Virus record (IMG/VR): IMGVR_UViG_2547132270_000007 | Length of the DNA stretch: 4,550 nucleotides | Strand: one strand, 5' to 3' | Origin: a virus | Lineage: Duplodnaviria > Heunggongvirae > Uroviricota > Caudoviricetes | Notes under the pieces: model-generated | The model's database searches: none | The model's input: only the letters and a program-made list of their open reading frames with translations | Told to the model about the DNA's origin: nothing | Program-made: the position numbers and the translations under genes | Shown: positions 1 through 4,550 of the stretch, in pieces | How positions within the stretch are numbered: the stretch's first letter is position 1 | Layout: each line of letters opens with the position of its first letter

Positions 1-265
1 GCATCACAAAATTCACTTTAAAAAGGGCGGACATCAGCCGAACTTCAAGAAAAAAACTGATGCCGCCAGGACTACACACAGCAATGTCGTTATTCACAAC
101 CGGATGCGCACTCCCACCATTTAAATTTAACAGACAAGACCGACTCTTTATGGATATCGGAAATGCGCCTTCGTGTTGTGCCCGGTTTTATTTCACCACC
201 TCCGGGCTTTGGTGGCCTCGGCTATACCCCTACAGCGAGAATATTGAATTAATCCAAATAATGGA

Positions 266-418
266 TTAGCAAGTATTTCTGGCAAGCCAGCGACGTGCGC
301 CCGTTTCAGTTTTGAATGTCTTGCTTTTTGTATAAGTCATGGCGGTGAACGTTCCATCCTGGCTGGGGAACACGCCACACACCAGGGATTCGTTGTTGCC
401 GAGGTCGATTTTTTGCAT
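266..418 (-). CDS. Small prophage protein, 50 aa (YdaF-like by size and position)
   Basis: Hand translation of the minus strand gives MQKIDLGNNESLVCGVFPSQDGTFTAMTYTKSKTFKTETGARRWLARNTC, stop TAA (+266-268). SD GAGGTG (+425-430) sits 6 nt before the ATG (+416-418) and overlaps the stop of the upstream 44-aa gene, suggesting translational coupling. Below the ORF-track length cut-off. Confidence 0.5.
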   Translation of the reverse strand: MQKIDLGNNESLVCGVFPSQDGTFTAMTYTKSKTFKTETGARRWLARNTC

Positions 419-428
419 TTTTCGCACC

Positions 429-563
429 TCACATTTTGTTGTTGCGGATAGAGGCTTCTGCCTGCCAGAGATCCCAGTCGTTGCTGCGTAGAGCCTGCAC
501 AGCCTGGTTGTAAGTGATACCGCAACAATCCATCAAATACTGAACTACTTCGTAATGCACCAT
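429..563 (-). CDS. Small prophage protein, 44 aa (YdaG-like by size and position)
   Basis: Hand translation of the minus strand gives MVHYEVVQYLMDCCGITYNQAVQALRSNDWDLWQAEASIRNNKM, stop TGA (+429-431). SD-like GGGGAGAG lies about 7 nt upstream of the ATG (+561-563). Sits between the repressor gene and the 50-aa gene, same strand. Confidence 0.5.
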   Translation of the reverse strand: MVHYEVVQYLMDCCGITYNQAVQALRSNDWDLWQAEASIRNNKM

Positions 564-798: not shown

Positions 799-1263
799 CT
801 ATTTCTTCATGCGTTTCTGAGCTGCCAGCATATTTTCAAACGCTTCTTTGTAGAGTTCATTCTGGCCTTTAAGCCTTTCGATTAGTTTTGCTTTTTCTGA
901 TTCGGGGAGGATATCAAAAAGATCCAGTAAATCAGCTTGTTGCTTGTTAACCATCCGCCACCCTTCGCCTTCGAAACTTTCGTCATAAGTTCCAGAGGAA
1001 CGTACGTAATTCATCAGATCAGCTAAATCAGGCCTCAAGTCTTCAGGCTTAACTCTTAGCAATACTGCGAATTTTAATGCCGCATCAGTGTTAAGTGGAG
1101 CCTTTCCGTTGAGATAGTGGCTAACCGTAGATTGCGTCTCAAAGCCCATTAGCTCGGCAGCAAGCTCCTGAGTCAGTTTGAGCTCTCTTTTTTTTGCATC
1201 CCAGATTCCGCGTAGACGCTGCGTAGCTTCTGGCGATGCGATTTCTTCGCGTTTTCTTCTCAT
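799..1263 (-). CDS. racR: CI-type phage repressor without peptidase domain (RacR-like), 154 aa
   Basis: ORF-track protein has an N-terminal helix-turn-helix (LTQELAAELMGFETQSTVSHYLNG) resembling the lambda CI / P22 C2 DNA-binding domain, and a short helical C-terminus with no LexA-like S24 peptidase motifs. Divergent from the Cro-like gene. Symbol assigned from architecture and synteny, not a search. Confidence 0.85.
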   Translation of the reverse strand: MRRKREEIASPEATQRLRGIWDAKKRELKLTQELAAELMGFETQSTVSHYLNGKAPLNTDAALKFAVLLRVKPEDLRPDLADLMNYVRSSGTYDESFEGEGWRMVNKQQADLLDLFDILPESEKAKLIERLKGQNELYKEAFENMLAAQKRMKK

Positions 1264-1339: not shown

Positions 1340-1367
1340 TTTGGCAGACATTACTAAGGTGACCCTT

Positions 1368-1643
1368 ATGACATTAGATGAATATTTGAAAAAAAATCGT
1401 GTACGACAGTCTTGTTTGGCCGCGCTGGCTGGTTGTTCGCAATCAATGATTAGCCTCGTTGCTACTGGACGTAGTCAGTTAAGCCCTGAAAAGGTATTGC
1501 GTATCGCAGAGGCTACGAATTTCGAGGTTACACCTCATGAACTCCGGCCTGATATCTACCCGAATCCGACCGATGGTTTACCTGTTGGATGTAAGGCTAA
1601 CACACAAAATGCACAGGAGTTGATTCATGAAAATCAGGCATGA
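1368..1643 (+). CDS. ydaS: Cro-like HTH regulator, YdaS family, 91 aa
   Basis: ORF track 1341-1643. Preferred start is ATG 1368 with SD AAGGTGA (1356-1362) 5 nt upstream; the TTG at 1341 would fall inside the predicted promoter. HTH region QSCLAALAGCSQSMISLVATGRSQLS. First rightward gene after the divergent promoter; overlaps the next gene by 17 nt. Confidence 0.85.
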   Translation: MTLDEYLKKNRVRQSCLAALAGCSQSMISLVATGRSQLSPEKVLRIAEATNFEVTPHELRPDIYPNPTDGLPVGCKANTQNAQELIHENQA

Positions 1644-2049
1644 GCACATCGAATCAGTGCTGTTAGCCCTGGCCGCTGAAAAAGGGCAGGCGTGGGTTGC
1701 TAACGCAATTACTGAAGAATATCTGCGCCAGGGGGGCGGCGAATTGCCCCTGGTACCAGGCAAGGACTGGAATAATCAGCAGAATATCTATCACCGATGG
1801 TTGAAAGGTGAAACAAAAGCGCAAAGGGAAAAAATTCAGAAGCTGATCCCAGCAATTCTGGCAATCCTTCCGCGCGAGCTGCGTCACCGACTCTGCATCT
1901 TCGATACCCTGGAACGCCGTGCATTACTGGCGGCGCAGGAAGCGTTAAGTACGGCAATTGATGCGCATGATGATGCTGTCCAGGCCGTTTACCGGAAAGC
2001 GCATTTCAGCGGCGGTGGTTCGTCCGGCGATTCTGTTGTTGTTCATTAA
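1627..2049 (+). CDS. ydaT: YdaT-family protein (CII-position regulator, historically called a toxin), 140 aa
   Basis: ATG 1627 with SD AGGAG (1615-1619) 7 nt upstream. 140 aa, same length as Rac YdaT; begins MKIRHEHI and ends SGDSVVVH. Sits directly after the Cro-like gene with a 17-nt overlap. Confidence 0.88.
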   Translation: MKIRHEHIESVLLALAAEKGQAWVANAITEEYLRQGGGELPLVPGKDWNNQQNIYHRWLKGETKAQREKIQKLIPAILAILPRELRHRLCIFDTLERRALLAAQEALSTAIDAHDDAVQAVYRKAHFSGGGSSGDSVVVH

Positions 2050-2068
2050 GTGAATAGGGTAACTAACA

Positions 2069-2482
2069 ATGAAAATCAAACCGTTTATCAATGCTGGAAA
2101 TCTTACTCCCGGCGAACTACGAGACTGGATCCTGAAACTTGCAAAAAATGCAGAAATTGCGGGTTGGGGTACAGAAACTTCGGTTCGGAAGCTTCAGAGC
2201 GCAGAACTTAGCCTGCGCTCAGTTATGGACGATTTATCCCCAAGAATTAATTTTCTGGGGTCAGAGCAAATAATTCGTTCGGAAGGTCACTCCAGCGAAG
2301 TTGCGGAAGTTCTGAATACTCTGAGGATAACTTTTGCTGCCGTTCGCGATATTCAACGAACCATTCTCTCATTGATTTCTCAGCTTCAAGAAATTGATAG
2401 TCGCATTCCTGACGGGGGGCATAGAGAGCGTCTTCCAGAATGTGAAGAGCAAGGACAGGGGAAACAGATAAGGGATCAGTAA
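2069..2482 (+). CDS. Hypothetical protein, 137 aa, no family recognised (conflicts with antisense ORF 2247-2702)
   Basis: ATG 19 nt after the ydaT stop, weak SD-like AGGGT 8 nt upstream. Predicted helical protein with acidic C-terminal tail. Around 10 percent rare codons (ATA, AGG, AGA, CGA, GGG). Overlaps the minus-strand ORF by 236 bp, so at most one is likely to be real. Confidence 0.4.
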   Translation: MKIKPFINAGNLTPGELRDWILKLAKNAEIAGWGTETSVRKLQSAELSLRSVMDDLSPRINFLGSEQIIRSEGHSSEVAEVLNTLRITFAAVRDIQRTILSLISQLQEIDSRIPDGGHRERLPECEEQGQGKQIRDQ

Positions 2483-2702
2483 TACGTTTTTCACTTGCCT
2501 GGTATAGCAATCTCGCCAGCGAATCATAGCTACTGGGGCTCAGGAGAGAATCCCGTGAGTGATTTGTAAGAATCAGGTGGAAGCGGGTGAGAACTATAGC
2601 CCTGCATGTTACCAGGTTAACCATGTCGTGGTCGTGCTGGTTAATTTTGTACACAGTGCGCATGTGATTTTTAATTTTTTGGCAAACAGCCATTAAAGAC
2701 AT
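2247..2702 (-). CDS. Hypothetical protein, 151 aa, His/Cys-rich N-terminus, no family recognised; antisense to the early operon
   Basis: Near-consensus SD AAGGAGG (+2709-2715) exactly 6 nt before the ATG (+2700-2702). Perfect TATAAT on the minus strand (+2742-2747) upstream. Fewer rare codons than the overlapping + ORF. Its first 73 codons lie in a region with no plus-strand ORF. Perfect 8-bp hairpin (2197-2220) lies 27 nt past its stop. Confidence 0.5.
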   Translation of the reverse strand: MSLMAVCQKIKNHMRTVYKINQHDHDMVNLVTCRAIVLTRFHLILTNHSRDSLLSPSSYDSLARLLYQASEKRITDPLSVSPVLALHILEDALYAPRQECDYQFLEAEKSMREWFVEYRERQQKLSSEYSELPQLRWSDLPNELFALTPEN

Positions 2703-2765
2703 GTCGAACCTCCTTTGGTTCTGTTGATTGGGGAATCACAGATTATATCCGGAGGAAGGTTCGAC
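2703..2765. promoter_or_regulatory. Inverted-repeat control region between the antisense ORF and the replication initiator
   Basis: 9-bp perfect inverted repeat GTCGAACCT (2703-2711) and AGGTTCGAC (2757-2765), 45 nt apart. It brackets the minus-strand TATAAT (2742-2747); the left arm is the SD-to-start spacer of the minus ORF and the right arm adjoins a plus-strand GGAGG (2751-2755). Confidence 0.35.
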
Positions 2766-2781
2766 ACCAGATGAGGCAATT

Positions 2782-3906
2782 ATGGTTAAGGCTAAAAACA
2801 TGCCAAATCCCATGCCAAAAACTAAGGCAAACAATGAGCCTTATCGCAAGGTAAAAATAACGATATGGGATGATCCCAAATTTAGGGCGTTATCTCCTCT
2901 GCCTCCAAGTGGACAGAGTTTGTTTATTTATCTGCTGACCAGTCCATTTACCGGGATTATTCCCGGGTTGTTTAAAGCCGGGCGGGCAGCAATGGCTGAA
3001 GAGTTGGGGTGGGATATTGAAGCCTTTGACTTAGCCTTAGGCGAAGCCATGAAGCTTGGCATGGTGAAAGCAGATATCAAAGCCAGAGTTTTTTGGCTCC
3101 CGAATGCTGCGAAACACAATCCGCCAAACTCGATAAATGTCATTAAATCTTGGGCAAAGGCATTCGCTTTAATTCCTGATTGCCCTCTCAAATGGGAGGC
3201 CAGGGAATCGCTGAGAGCGGCGTCCTACGGGGTTTCTGAGGCTTTGGGGATGGCATTCGATAAGGCAATCCCTTTGCCTGAGGATAAGCCTAAGGATAAG
3301 GCTAACGCTTTGTCATGCGGTATCCAGATAACAGATAACAGATATATAAACCCCACACATAACGCGCGCGTGCGCGAGAGTGCTCTGACCAGTGAGTCGA
3401 ATGATTTGCCGTTACAGGCAGCGGAACCTGATTACCTGGAAGGCCTGAGCGAACCCATCGGGAAATTTCCGATGACCGATGGCTGGCATCCGTCGCCGGA
3501 TTTCCGACGGCGGGCTGCACTGTGGGGAGTGGCTCTGCCGGAGCCGGAATTTACACCTGCTGAACTTGCCGCCTTCCGGGACTACTGGGCAGCGGAGGGG
3601 AAAGTTTTCACGCAGGTTCAGTGGGAGCAGAAATTCGCCCGTCACGTAAATCACGTCAGGGCGCAGGTTAAACCAGTCAGCAAGGGGGTGAACCATGCAG
3701 CAGCACCAGGTGGCACCGCATCACGGGCAGTTCAGGAAATTCGGGCAGCACGTGAGCAGTGGGAACGTGAAAACGGATTTATCCGCGACGGAAACGGCGT
3801 GGAAGCTGTGGGAACTCATGGGGGAGGTTTATTCGAACCGCTGGACCCAGAAGAACGGGGCCGCACCTTCGAAGCTCTGGATTGCACAGATTGGCGCGAT
3901 GACTGA
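2782..3906 (+). CDS. Phage replication initiation protein with DnaT-like C-terminal domain, about 374 aa
   Basis: ORF track 2728-3906 begins at a TTG with no SD. Preferred start is in-frame ATG 2782 with GAGG 5 nt upstream (ATG 2800 is an alternative). N-terminal region WDDPKFRALS...LFIYLLT looks like a phage replisome-organiser DNA-binding domain; a low-complexity linker follows; then a DnaT-like motif (WHPSPDF...FRDYWAAEGKVFTQVQWEQKFARHV). Sits immediately upstream of a lambda-P-like gene. Confidence 0.85.
   Translation: MVKAKNMPNPMPKTKANNEPYRKVKITIWDDPKFRALSPLPPSGQSLFIYLLTSPFTGIIPGLFKAGRAAMAEELGWDIEAFDLALGEAMKLGMVKADIKARVFWLPNAAKHNPPNSINVIKSWAKAFALIPDCPLKWEARESLRAASYGVSEALGMAFDKAIPLPEDKPKDKANALSCGIQITDNRYINPTHNARVRESALTSESNDLPLQAAEPDYLEGLSEPIGKFPMTDGWHPSPDFRRRAALWGVALPEPEFTPAELAAFRDYWAAEGKVFTQVQWEQKFARHVNHVRAQVKPVSKGVNHAAAPGGTASRAVQEIRAAREQWERENGFIRDGNGVEAVGTHGGGLFEPLDPEERGRTFEALDCTDWRDD
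3259..3380. repeat. Origin-like repeat cluster inside the initiator gene linker (candidate ori)
   Basis: GATAAGGC (3259-3266); tandem GGATAAGCCTAA / GGATAAGGCTAA (3282-3305); tandem CAGATAA CAGATAA CAGATAT (3325-3345); AT-rich TATATAAA; then an alternating CG tract CGCGCGCGTGCGCG (3363-3376). The order (iterons, AT-rich, GC-rich) parallels lambda ori, which lies within the O gene. Confidence 0.4.
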
Positions 3907-4360
3907 GCAGCAAATCCGGCAGGTCTGCCGCCAGTGCATGGACCGTTGCAGGGCAGGTGAAACATGGCCTCCGGACCTGGCTGAGTTTGTGGCGCTGATT
4001 TCGGAGAGCGGGGCAAATCCATTTGGTCTGACGGTGGATAACGTGATGGAGGAATATCGCCGCTGGCGCAATGAGTCCTGGCGATACGACGGGAGTGATA
4101 AATACCCGTGGTCTCAGCCCGTGCTGTATCACATTTGCCTCGAGATGCGGGCAAAAGGGATTGAGCGTCAGATGACCGAAGGGGAGTTAAAACGACTTGC
4201 AGAACGGCAACTGGCGAAATGGGCAAAGCTTGTTGGTGACGGCTTCAGCGTTCCGCCCGTCCGGCGGCAACTGGTAGCACCAAAACGCCCGTCGGGGCCA
4301 ACTCCAATTGAGTTGCTGAAACAGGAATATGAACGCCGGAAAGCGGCTGGGTTTGTTTGA
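3695..4360 (+). CDS. Lambda P-family replication protein (DnaB helicase loader), up to 221 aa
   Basis: Recalled lambda P sequence aligns by eye over the C-terminal two thirds (ours [10 protein letters not shown]...YPWSQ...[11 protein letters not shown]...PPVRRQL vs lambda PSPGQFVAW...YPWKS...LTDAELRRKAA...EPVKQL). ATG 3695 has a strong SD (AAGGGGGTG, 6-nt spacing) and gives near-lambda-P length. Alternative in-frame starts are ATG 3818 and ATG 3899; the weak similarity seen upstream of residue 69 argues against 3899. Confidence 0.85.
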
Positions 4361-4395
4361 GTTGAGAAGTAATTTTTACCGGGAGGAAATTTTAA

Positions 4396-4550
4396 TGGAA
4401 ACTGTTTTTGATGCACTGAAAGCAATGGGAAAAGCCACATCCATAGAACTTGCTGCGCGACTTGATATCAGTCGTGAAGAAGTGCTGAACGAACTATGGG
4501 AACTGAAAAAGGCTGGTTTCGTTGATAAAAGCGCGTACACCTGGCGTGTG
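4396..4550 (+). CDS. Small winged-helix DNA-binding protein (PapI/FaeA-like fold suspected), 5' partial, runs off the window
   Basis: ATG 4396 with GGGAGG (4381-4386) upstream; open to the window end. Translation is [52 protein letters not shown], a pattern typical of small winged-helix regulators. Too short and truncated for the ORF track. Confidence 0.55.

What the first reader, a model, noticed from the sequence alone, without database searches (positions are those of the whole stretch)
2782..4360. Mosaic replication module: DnaT-domain initiator paired with a lambda-P-type helicase loader, downstream of a Rac-type immunity module
The immunity genes resemble Rac, but the replication genes are not the YdaU/YdaV-sized pair I recall from K-12 Rac (about 285 and 246 aa). 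A 374-aa initiator with a DnaT-like domain next to a lambda-P-like loader suggests a module exchange at the ydaT/replication junction. That is the same junction where the unknown ORF pair sits.
Basis: partly seen in the sequence, partly recalled or inferred. Interest (0 to 1): 0.4.

Follow-up and report, generated by a model that had tools for sequence, protein, structure and literature searches.

The report
Common prophage replication module, overlapping genes
This is an ordinary, widespread lambda-style replication module of E. coli Rac-like prophages (an origin-binding initiator carrying a DnaT-type domain plus a lambda-P-type helicase loader), whose one unexpected feature is that the two genes share about 212 bases read in two frames, which standard annotation misses.

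Summary
ORF 2782-3906 (374 aa) carries a Pfam DnaT domain (E 4e-18) and ORF 3695-4360 a Phage_lambda_P domain (E 8e-16). K-12 Rac has an unrelated pair, DUF1376 YdaU and IstB/DnaC-like YdaV.

Against K-12 Rac the replaced segment is exactly 2051-4358, from the ydaT stop to the loader stop, so an exchange at that junction is supported.

The arrangement is not unusual. The DnaT-domain + P block (3344-4360) occurs in about 1300 of 5426 complete E. coli genomes and in the Rac-SA53 phage record, and PGAP names it routinely. The DnaT_C/P pairing is already published (DopC/DopE).

The pair is not a recent chimera. The variable part is the initiator's N-terminal domain with its own iterons, exchanged at a junction inside the gene (about 3322-3344, where GC rises from 45% to 58%).

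The "Rac-type immunity" label is only partly right, because the repressor is unrelated to RacR.

New here: the loader most likely starts at ATG 3695, not the annotated 3899. It then overlaps the initiator's tail by 212 nt in another frame. Both frames are conserved across many Enterobacterales genera.

The module is already known; interest is low to moderate.

The parts
2782..3906 (+). Initiator / replisome-organiser gene, 374 aa. It has an N-terminal presumed origin-binding domain, a linker, a DnaT-type ssDNA-binding domain and a C-terminal tail.
   Evidence: ORF. Pfam DnaT. phrog_1408 'replication initiation protein' covers aa 20-355, E 1e-89. Full-length homologues of 366-385 aa at 50-65% identity align from the N-terminus. 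GAGG lies 6 nt upstream of ATG 2782. PGAP's 305-aa call in the best E. coli hit is a start-site choice, because the DNA there differs at only one base.
2839..3276 (+). N-terminal domain (about aa 20-165), the presumed iteron-binding specificity domain. This is the exchangeable part.
   Evidence: Highly conserved in alignment A2. Weak PHROG matches to DnaD-like and replisome-organiser N-domains. No Pfam hit. AF2 pLDDT is 55-88, and Foldseek returned only non-significant matches, mostly winged-helix proteins. Only 37 E. coli genomes carry this version.
3259..3312 (.). Candidate origin iterons, GATAAGGCnnnnnCnTTG, 2-3 copies (3259, 3283, 3295). A looser second cluster of the motif sits at 2770-2894.
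   Evidence: AAGGCWWWC gives 5 hits against 0.46 expected. The same repeats are kept in Salmonella and Citrobacter orthologues with the same N-domain. Each other N-domain type has its own repeat family at the same place: TGTCACGAC x6, CAAAGACACCCAAA x3, ACTACGnTAGnnACTACGA x3-4.
3320..3352 (.). AT-rich stretch (cagataacagataacagatatataaacc) that holds the internal recombination junction at about 3322-3344.
   Evidence: Sequence. Similarity to about 1260 other E. coli genomes begins at window 3326-3347 and at 3322-3344 in loci L005-L009. GC rises from about 0.45 (2701-3150) to 0.58-0.60 (3301-3750).
3454..3669 (+). DnaT-type three-helix ssDNA-binding domain (aa 225-296).
3682..3697 (+). Loader ribosome-binding site AAGGGGG (3682-3688) and start codon ATG (3695-3697), both inside the initiator ORF.
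   Evidence: Sequence. The first ATG of the loader ORF is preceded by a GGAGG-like motif in most loci of other genera.
3695..3906 (+). Dual-coding overlap of 212 nt. It encodes the initiator tail (aa 305-374, window position mod 3 = 1) and loader residues 1-70 (position mod 3 = 2).
   Evidence: details are in the report.
3695..4360 (+). Lambda-P-type helicase loader gene, 221 aa. PGAP and phage records annotate only 3899-4360 (153 aa).
   Evidence: Pfam and PHROG hits. Homologues of 212-223 aa at 48-78% identity cover 96-100% of the query. W39, W50, K53, N54, G55, P58 and W62 are invariant or nearly so, and all lie upstream of M69, the annotated start.
2051..4358 (.). Segment that replaces ydaU-ydaV of K-12 Rac: unknown ORF pair, initiator and loader.
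   Evidence: blastn of window against L003: 1621-2050 is 94.7% identical, 4359-4550 is 96.4%, and nothing matches in between.

Best explanation
This is the early-right replication module of a Rac/Qin-like lambdoid prophage of E. coli, built on the lambda O/P plan.

Shown:
- A 374-aa initiator with a conserved N-terminal domain, a DnaT-type ssDNA-binding domain (aa 225-296) and a 70-residue tail.
- A 221-aa lambda-P-family protein that most likely starts at ATG 3695. If so, the two genes overlap by 212 nt in different frames. Residues conserved upstream of the annotated start guarantee at least about 113 nt of overlap.
- Relative to K-12 Rac, the segment 2051-4358 is replaced.
- There is a second, much more frequently used junction inside the initiator gene at about 3322-3344.
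- Each N-domain type carries its own repeat family immediately upstream of that junction.

Inferred, by analogy with lambda O/P and with E. coli DnaT:
- The N-domain binds the GATAAGGC-type iterons that lie within its own coding sequence.
- The adjacent AT-rich stretch melts.
- The DnaT-type domain contacts the exposed single strand, the helicase, or both.
- The tail recruits the loader, which delivers host DnaB.

The block of DnaT domain, tail and loader is inherited as a unit. Origin specificity (N-domain plus iterons) is swapped at the AT-rich linker.
For: Domains.

Boundaries against K-12 Rac. Internal junction and frequencies: (1300 genomes carry any part, 37 carry the whole), and the GC step. 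Iteron families co-vary with N-domain type and are conserved in orthologues. Motif enrichment.

Loader start at 3695:
- A Shine-Dalgarno motif precedes it.
- Homologues 212-223 aa long cover the whole query at 48-78% identity.
- Invariant or near-invariant residues lie upstream of the annotated start.

Dual coding:
- An overlap of 149-224 nt (mostly 212 or 215) with the same frame offset is seen in 24 of the 28 loci of this P subfamily (L010-L037); 2 lack it and 2 are ambiguous.
- With the loader's amino acids held fixed and synonymous codons randomised, the initiator frame stays open with probability about 0.04 per sequence. It is open in all 25 sequences tested (window plus 24 loci).
- Control: P genes partnered with lambda-O-type initiators (n = 7) have 5.9 stops per 210 nt in that frame. 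The third frame in the long-overlap loci has about 4.
- The tail motif [16 protein letters not shown]...[14 protein letters not shown]...DxxDD-stop is conserved across genera. It persists behind non-DnaT bodies.
- Nucleotide diversity among 8 E. coli-level sequences is 0.042 in the overlap, 0.116 in initiator-only and 0.093 in loader-only sequence.
- Variation sits at initiator wobble sites in 3695-3793 and at loader wobble sites in 3794-3906.
- Third-position identity at identical residues is raised in both frames.
Against: - No experiment was done. Origin function, DNA binding and the tail-loader contact are all inferences.
- The window's iterons are few (2-3) and degenerate compared with lambda's four or the six in sister types.
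- GATAAGGC with one mismatch allowed is only weakly enriched: 8 hits against 3.5 expected, reached by 4 of 200 shuffles.
- The N-domain has no Pfam family, and the Foldseek matches to it are non-significant, E 0.3-1.3.
- The loci used for the overlap tests are related, so the per-locus probabilities cannot simply be multiplied.
- The rise in loader-frame wobble conservation is modest, 0.554 against 0.463.
- The first 33 loader residues are poorly conserved, so an internal GTG start (aa 6, 20 or 25) is not excluded. The overlap would then be 140-197 nt.
- The strong match of profile A1 to lambda P structures is inflated, because A1 contains lambda P itself.
Confidence: 0.8

Rival explanations
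1. The database annotation is right. The loader is 153 aa and starts at ATG 3899, overlapping the initiator by 8 nt. The open frame upstream of 3899 is not translated.
For: PGAP annotates 153 aa in every E. coli locus examined. Curated phage records give 153 or 140 aa.
Against: The Pfam P-domain match begins at residue 56, upstream of M69. W39, W50, K53, N54, G55, P58 and W62 are invariant or nearly so in homologues down to 46% identity. Lambda P aligns collinearly with the 221-aa form. No Shine-Dalgarno motif precedes 3899, whereas AAGGGGG precedes 3695. The loader frame is open from a conserved ATG in nearly all loci examined.
Confidence: 0.04
2. Only the loader frame is under selection in 3695-3906. 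The initiator's last 70 residues are a tolerated read-through with no function, and the frame stays open by ancestry.
For: In 3794-3906 the E. coli-level variation follows the loader's codon phase. The AF2 model shows the tail as one helix followed by disorder, with pLDDT below 60. The sequences are related, so shared ancestry inflates the apparent conservation.
Against: The frame stays open with chance probability about 0.04 per sequence across genera that share only 32-68% tail identity. The stop position is conserved, giving an overlap of 212 or 215 nt in most loci. In 3695-3793 the variation follows the initiator's phase and the loader residues are the variable ones. The tail motif is retained when the upstream domain is exchanged. 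Control loci have about 6 stops in that frame.
Confidence: 0.12
3. One reading: the DnaT-domain initiator and the P-type loader were brought together recently by recombination, so the pairing itself is an unusual chimera.
For: Lambdoid phages are highly mosaic. K-12 Rac has a different pair at the same position.
Against: The DnaT domain, tail and loader are contiguous, overlapping and co-conserved in Escherichia, Salmonella, Citrobacter, Enterobacter, Klebsiella, Pluralibacter, Phytobacter, Kluyvera, Pectobacterium and Serratia. About 24% of complete E. coli genomes carry the block. No junction falls between the DnaT domain and the loader. The DnaT_C + P pairing was described in 2017 (PMC5509034).
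Confidence: 0.04
4. The origin is not inside the initiator gene. The repeats at 3259-3312 merely reflect a repetitive D-K-A/P peptide linker, and the origin lies elsewhere, for example in the AT-rich 2600-2700 region or outside the window.
For: The repeats encode 'DKAIPLPEDKPKDKANAL', so repetition at the protein level could explain them. There are only 2-3 copies. Repeats also exist at 2634-2678.
Against: Four unrelated N-domain types each have a different repeat family at the same position, directly before the shared junction. Some have 6 copies in a 10-21-nt register, typical of iterons. The layout matches lambda, where the iterons and AT-rich region lie in the middle of O.
Confidence: 0.2

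Closest known systems
Bacteriophage lambda O/P replication module with ori-lambda inside gene O
   Same: The gene order is cII-like, then initiator, then loader. The loader belongs to the Phage_lambda_P family. The repeats and an AT-rich stretch lie in the middle of the initiator gene, between an N-terminal specificity domain and a C-terminal part that travels with the loader. The module is exchangeable between lambdoid phages.
   Different: The initiator has no Phage_rep_O domain (lambda O has it). A DnaT-type domain plus tail replaces the C-terminal part of O. The loader's N-terminal 92 residues are not similar to those of P genes partnered with O-type initiators. The genes overlap by 212 nt rather than 4 nt.
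E. coli primosomal protein DnaT (PriA-PriB-DnaT replication restart)
   Same: The C-terminal three-helix ssDNA-binding domain is about 57-59% identical to crystallised DnaT C-domains, with TM about 0.9.
   Different: Only profile positions 80-166 of 179 are matched, at 97.5 bits against the equivalog cut-off of 201. The N-terminal half of DnaT (profile positions 1-79) is absent. The domain is embedded in a phage initiator.
K-12 Rac YdaU (DUF1376) / YdaV (IstB/DnaC-like ATPase)
   Same: It occupies the same slot between ydaT and the DUF1627 gene ydaW, and presumably has the same role.
   Different: There is no sequence similarity and the loader is of a different type, an AAA+ ATPase rather than P. 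In other E. coli strains a DUF1376 N-domain is fused to the same DnaT-tail-P block (L005).
DopC/DopE, chromosomal genes domesticated from lambdoid O/P (Brezellec et al. 2017, PMC5509034)
   Same: An HTH N-domain plus a DnaT C-terminal motif sits next to a P-domain protein.
   Different: These are chromosomal genes of bacteria that lack DnaC and DciA, and the authors detected no iterons. Sequence relationship and gene overlap were not tested here.
Escherichia phage Rac-SA53 'ydaU primosomal protein I' / 'ydaV putative replication protein'
   Same: It has the same DnaT-domain + P block downstream of ydaT, in a deposited Rac-type phage genome.
   Different: The window aligns to that record over only 41% of its length, in three pieces, and its initiator is 356 aa rather than 374 aa. 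Its loader is likewise annotated at 153 aa.

Membership tests
Lambda-P helicase-loader family (Pfam PF06992) | Match to the Phage_lambda_P profile above the gathering score | tested here: met
   58.6 bits against a cut-off of 26, E 8.2e-16, profile positions 28-161 of 162. phrog_109 'P-like helicase loader', E 8e-61.
Lambda-P helicase-loader family (Pfam PF06992) | Binds and loads host DnaB | not testable with these tools
   Inference from family membership only.
Lambda O initiator family (Pfam PF04492 Phage_rep_O) | N-terminal Phage_rep_O domain | tested here: not met
   No Pfam hit for aa 1-173 even at E <= 1. Lambda O scores E 6e-36 in the same call.
Lambda-type module (functional class: initiator with intragenic origin plus loader) | Iterons followed by an AT-rich stretch inside the initiator gene, co-varying with the N-domain | tested here: inconclusive
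   There are 2-3 GATAAGGC-type repeats at 3259-3312 and an AT-rich stretch at 3320-3352. The repeats are conserved in orthologues, and other N-domain types have different repeat families at the same place. Function was not shown.
DnaT (primosomal protein I) equivalog, NCBIfam NF002770 | Full-length match above the curated cut-off (201 bits) | tested here: not met
   97.5 bits, covering only profile positions 80-166 of 179.
DnaT DNA-binding domain (Pfam PF17948) | Domain match and three-helix fold | tested here: met
   65.2 bits against a cut-off of 25. PDB hits at E about 1e-20. Foldseek TM 0.88-0.91 and rmsd about 1.5 A to 4ou6/6aeq.
K-12 Rac YdaU/YdaV module | DUF1376 initiator and IstB/DnaC-like ATPase loader | tested here: not met
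   Neither domain is present in the window's proteins. There is no BLASTP or DNA similarity.
Rac immunity group (RacR/YdaS/YdaT) | RacR-type repressor and YdaS/YdaT | tested here: not met
   YdaT is met: 95% DNA identity and the Pfam YdaT_toxin domain. The YdaS-family domain is present at 42% identity over 50 aa. The repressor is unrelated to RacR.
DopC/DopE | Chromosomal, in genomes lacking dnaC and dciA, with an O-like HTH N-domain | not tested
   Only the published domain description was compared. The window's context is a prophage.

The most novel reading that the evidence does not exclude
The 212-nt overlap is a conserved dual-coding segment. It encodes, in two frames of the same DNA, the two surfaces through which the initiator (C-terminal tail) and the P-type loader (N-terminal about 70 residues) recognise each other. 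Cognate partners then cannot be separated by recombination, while origin specificity is freely exchanged at the AT-rich linker upstream. In lambda the corresponding contact (O C-terminus with P N-terminus, from established knowledge) is encoded by adjacent, non-overlapping DNA.
Probability: 0.3. Interest if true: 0.55.

Novelty: already known. Interest (0 to 1): 0.3.

Why it matters
As a replication module it adds little. It is one of the two commonest replication cassettes of Rac/Qin-type prophages, and modular exchange in lambdoid phages is textbook.

Two practical points follow.

1. In every annotated record examined here, the reference annotation truncates the loader by 68 or more residues. 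That holds for 6 PGAP-annotated E. coli loci and 3 phage records, out of about 1300 genomes that carry the block. In at least one record the initiator is also truncated, by 69 residues. The truncation removes the loader's conserved N-terminal part.

2. A 70-codon overlap with signs of selection in both frames is long for bacteria and phages. It makes a testable system for how two interacting replication proteins are kept together in a highly recombining gene pool.

Tried and rejected
- Direct BLASTP of the initiator against YdaU, and of the loader against lambda P. The first gave nothing. The second matched only the C-terminal two thirds at 23% identity, so profile methods were needed.
- Pfam on the N-terminal 173 aa at E <= 1 gave no family.
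- AF2 plus Foldseek for the N-domain. The model has mean pLDDT 54, and the matches to the N-domain are non-significant, mostly winged-helix proteins. I do not claim a fold.
- Profile A1 against the PDB gave E 5e-66 to lambda P. I discount this because A1 contains lambda P.
- GATAAGGC with one mismatch is only weakly enriched. I rely instead on conservation in orthologues and on the co-variation of repeat families with N-domain type.
- Programmed frameshift or an initiator-loader fusion. phrog_15931 spans both proteins, and a few fused database proteins exist (P0085, P0106, P0120). They are rare singletons or small clusters and are more simply explained as frameshift errors or pseudogenes. This was not pursued.
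- Four full-text literature searches and two papers gave no description of the long overlap. That is not proof that none exists.
- tblastn of the two unknown ORFs against phage records found only the one near-identical record.
Full report
**What is in the window**

The window is the early region of a Rac-like lambdoid prophage of E. coli (families).

| Coordinates | Strand | Feature |
|---|---|---|
| 266-427 | - | ydaF-like |
| 429-563 | - | ydaG-like |
| 799-1263 | - | 154-aa HTH_3 repressor with a DicA-like C-terminus |
| 1341-1643 | + | YdaS-family Cro-like gene |
| 1627-2049 | + | ydaT |
| 2069-2482 / 2247-2702 | + / - | pair of unknown, mutually overlapping ORFs |
| 2782-3906 | + | 374-aa ORF (initiator) |
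| 3695-4360 | + | 221-aa ORF (loader) |
| near 4393 onward | + | start of a DUF1627 (ydaW-like) gene |

The best complete E. coli genome matches the whole window at 96.6% identity. It shows the usual Rac neighbours: xisR, ralR, recT, recE and kilR.

**Check of the observation**

The domain calls are correct.

- The 374-aa protein has a Pfam DnaT DNA-binding domain at aa 229-295 (E 4.4e-18).
- It matches crystallised DnaT C-domains at E about 1e-20.
- In an AF2 model that segment superposes on 4ou6/6aeq at TM about 0.9.
- It is not a DnaT orthologue. The NCBIfam equivalog is matched only over positions 80-166, at half the cut-off score.
- The 221-aa ORF has Phage_lambda_P (E 8.2e-16) and phrog_109 'P-like helicase loader'.
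- K-12 Rac encodes YdaU (285 aa, DUF1376 only) and YdaV (248 aa, IstB/DnaC-like ATPase). Neither is similar to the window's genes.

**Where the exchange points are**

Against K-12 Rac:

| Window segment | Similarity to K-12 Rac |
|---|---|
| 1-240 | 98% |
| 287-599 | 93% |
| 600-1620 | none |
| 1621-2050 | 95% |
| 2051-4358 | none |
| 4359-4550 | 96% |

- The replication cassette, together with the unknown ORF pair, is replaced exactly between the ydaT stop and the loader stop.
- The repressor and Cro-like genes are also replaced. The repressor has no similarity to RacR, and the Cro-like protein is 42% identical to YdaS over 50 aa. The immunity region is therefore not Rac's.
- A third junction was not anticipated. 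Searching 2782-4360 against 5426 complete E. coli genomes finds 1300 genomes with a match, but only 37 carry the whole query.
- Almost all the rest begin to match at query 545-566, which is window 3326-3347. They run at 87-93% identity to the end of the loader.
- The junction lies in an AT-rich stretch in the middle of the initiator gene. It coincides with a rise in GC from about 45% to 58-60%.
- Upstream of it, other genomes carry unrelated N-terminal domains: DUF1376 in L005 and others in L006-L009.

**Origin**

Directly upstream of this junction each N-domain type has its own family of short direct repeats.

- The window type has GATAAGGCnnnnnCnTTG. Salmonella and Citrobacter orthologues with the same N-domain keep it.
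- Another type has TGTCACGAC in six copies.
- Another has CAAAGACACCCAAA in three copies.
- The DUF1376 type has ACTACGnTAGnnACTACGA in three to four copies.

This is the lambda layout, where four iterons and an AT-rich region lie in the middle of gene O.

For the window itself the case is only moderate. There are two to three copies. AAGGCWWWC gives 5 hits against 0.46 expected. The stricter motif is barely enriched.

I read 3259-3352 as the candidate origin and the N-domain as its binding domain. Neither is demonstrated. The N-domain has no Pfam family, and the Foldseek matches to it are non-significant.

**The overlap**

PGAP annotates the loader as 153 aa, starting at window 3899. Phage records give 153 or 140 aa. 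Several results contradict this.

- The Pfam match already starts 13 residues upstream of that start.
- Lambda P (233 aa) is collinear with the 221-aa form.
- Homologues of 212-223 aa at 48-78% identity cover 96-100% of the 221-aa query.
- W39, W50, K53, N54, G55, P58 and W62 are invariant or nearly so. All lie upstream of M69.
- ATG 3695 is preceded by AAGGGGG, whereas 3899 has no such motif.
- Of the 28 loci of this P subfamily (L010-L037; 38 loci were fetched in all), 24 show the overlap. In those the loader ORF starts at an ATG, preceded by a GGAGG-like site in most. It overlaps the upstream initiator ORF by 149-224 nt, mostly 212 or 215, always with the same frame offset.
- Two of the 28 loci lack the overlap. 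Two are ambiguous: one has the first in-frame ATG far upstream and one has a disrupted loader.
- P genes partnered with lambda-O-type initiators overlap by only 4-17 nt.

**Is the initiator frame also selected?**

- With the loader's amino acids held fixed and synonymous codons randomised, the initiator frame stays open with probability about 0.04 per sequence. It is open in all 25 sequences tested.
- In control P genes without the long overlap, that frame has 5.9 stops per 210 nt. The third frame in the overlap loci has about 4.
- The tail has a motif conserved across genera: [16 protein letters not shown], then [14 protein letters not shown], then an acidic end at a conserved stop. The motif is retained when the domain in front of it is not DnaT-like.
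- Among eight E. coli-level sequences, nucleotide diversity is 0.116 in initiator-only sequence, 0.042 in the overlap and 0.093 in loader-only sequence.
- In 3695-3793 the variation sits at the initiator's third positions. In 3794-3906 it sits at the loader's third positions. The shared position is almost invariant, at 0.007.
- Third-position identity at identical residues is raised in both frames.

The sequences are related and the counts are pairwise, so this is strong circumstantial evidence and not a formal test. I put dual coding at about 0.85.

The exact loader start could still be an internal GTG, which would give an overlap of 140-197 nt. The conserved residues guarantee at least about 113 nt.

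**Mechanism**

By analogy with lambda O/P and with what is known of DnaT's C-domain (ssDNA binding; PDB 4ou6):

1. The N-domain binds the iterons inside its own gene.
2. The AT-rich linker region opens.
3. The DnaT-type domain engages single-stranded DNA or the helicase.
4. The tail recruits the loader, which brings host DnaB.

All four steps are inferred. The AF2 model shows the tail as one helix (aa 315-330) followed by disorder. That fits a flexible docking element but does not prove one.

**Comparison with what is known, and novelty**

- The arrangement is common and already named in databases as 'DnaT-like ssDNA-binding domain-containing protein', 'phage replisome organizer', 'primosomal protein I' and 'replication protein P'.
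- It occurs in the Rac-SA53 phage record.
- It is about as frequent as the K-12-type ydaU-ydaV, which is found in 715 genomes at 80% coverage or more.
- The combination of a DnaT C-terminal motif with a P-domain partner was described for DopC/DopE, which were derived from lambdoid phages (PMC5509034).
- The finding as stated is therefore already known, and the 'mosaic pairing' reading is wrong in emphasis. The DnaT domain, tail and loader are the stable unit. The N-domain and origin are the exchanged part.
- I found no description of the long two-frame overlap or of the mis-set start in four full-text searches and two papers read. That search was limited.

**Verdict**

It is an ordinary module with one under-appreciated feature. 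Interest is 0.3.

Noticed in passing
window 2247-2702 (-), leader 2703-2806: The 151-aa minus-strand ORF has a perfect Shine-Dalgarno motif (AAGGAGGTTCGACATG) and a promoter-like site, TTGGCA-16-CATAAT, at 2806-2779. Its 5' end and leader (2695-2776) recur, mostly at 90-95% identity, in most of the 582 E. coli genomes hit by this query. In the listed hits the annotated gene is an 'ECs1072 family phage-associated protein'. In the one locus inspected that gene is also 151 aa, on the minus strand, in the same slot between ydaT and the initiator. The two proteins are unrelated. This looks like a cargo slot behind a shared leftward promoter, at the position of lambda's p_O/oop.
   Followed up: partly
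window 2069-2482 (+): PGAP annotates this 137-aa ORF (phrog_37051). It overlaps the minus-strand ORF by 236 nt antisense and has only a weak ribosome-binding site. One of the two ORFs may be spurious. The whole 2051-2781 segment occurs in only 24 complete E. coli genomes.
   Followed up: partly
window 799-1263 (-) and 1341-1643 (+): The repressor is unrelated to RacR; it has HTH_3 and a DicA-like C-terminal 50 residues. The Cro-like gene is only distantly YdaS-like. The prophage is therefore probably heteroimmune to K-12 Rac, even though ydaT and ydaF/ydaG are near-identical.
   Followed up: partly
window 240-287: K-12 Rac has about 550 bp, including sieB, between the two blocks that are almost adjacent here. 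sieB is absent from this prophage.
   Followed up: no
L002 (PP818812.1, 'Actinobacillus phage vB_Apl-pPE4'): A phage record labelled with an Actinobacillus pleuropneumoniae host is 96% identical to window 1619-4550 and carries E. coli Rac genes (exonuclease VIII, Kil, DicA, ydaT). The host label looks doubtful.
   Followed up: no
L001 8992-9906 (= window 2992-3906): PGAP calls the initiator 305 aa in the best E. coli hit, although the DNA differs from the window at only one base there. The first 69 residues are conserved in other genera, so that annotation is N-terminally truncated.
   Followed up: yes
homologues P0144, P0150, P0156, P0166: Some DUF1376-type initiators fused to the same DnaT block also carry PF10544 and PF13455 (T5orf172/MUG113-type) domains. 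This suggests a nuclease-like insertion inside an initiator gene.
   Followed up: no
homologues P0208, P0230, P0232, P0239 (alignment A2): These keep the window-type N-domain and the C-terminal tail but have a different middle domain in place of the DnaT domain. The initiator is therefore at least a three-part mosaic.
   Followed up: no
phrog_15931; P0085, P0106, P0120: A PHROG profile of 482 positions matches both the initiator's C-half and the whole loader. A few database proteins fuse initiator domains (PF17948 DnaT or PF07120 DUF1376) with P. These are probably frameshift errors or pseudogenes, but a fusion product was not excluded.
   Followed up: no
window 429-563 (-): The 44-aa ydaG-like protein gives a Pfam UBA_4 (UBA-like) hit just above the gathering score, 23.7 against 21.8 bits.
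   Followed up: no
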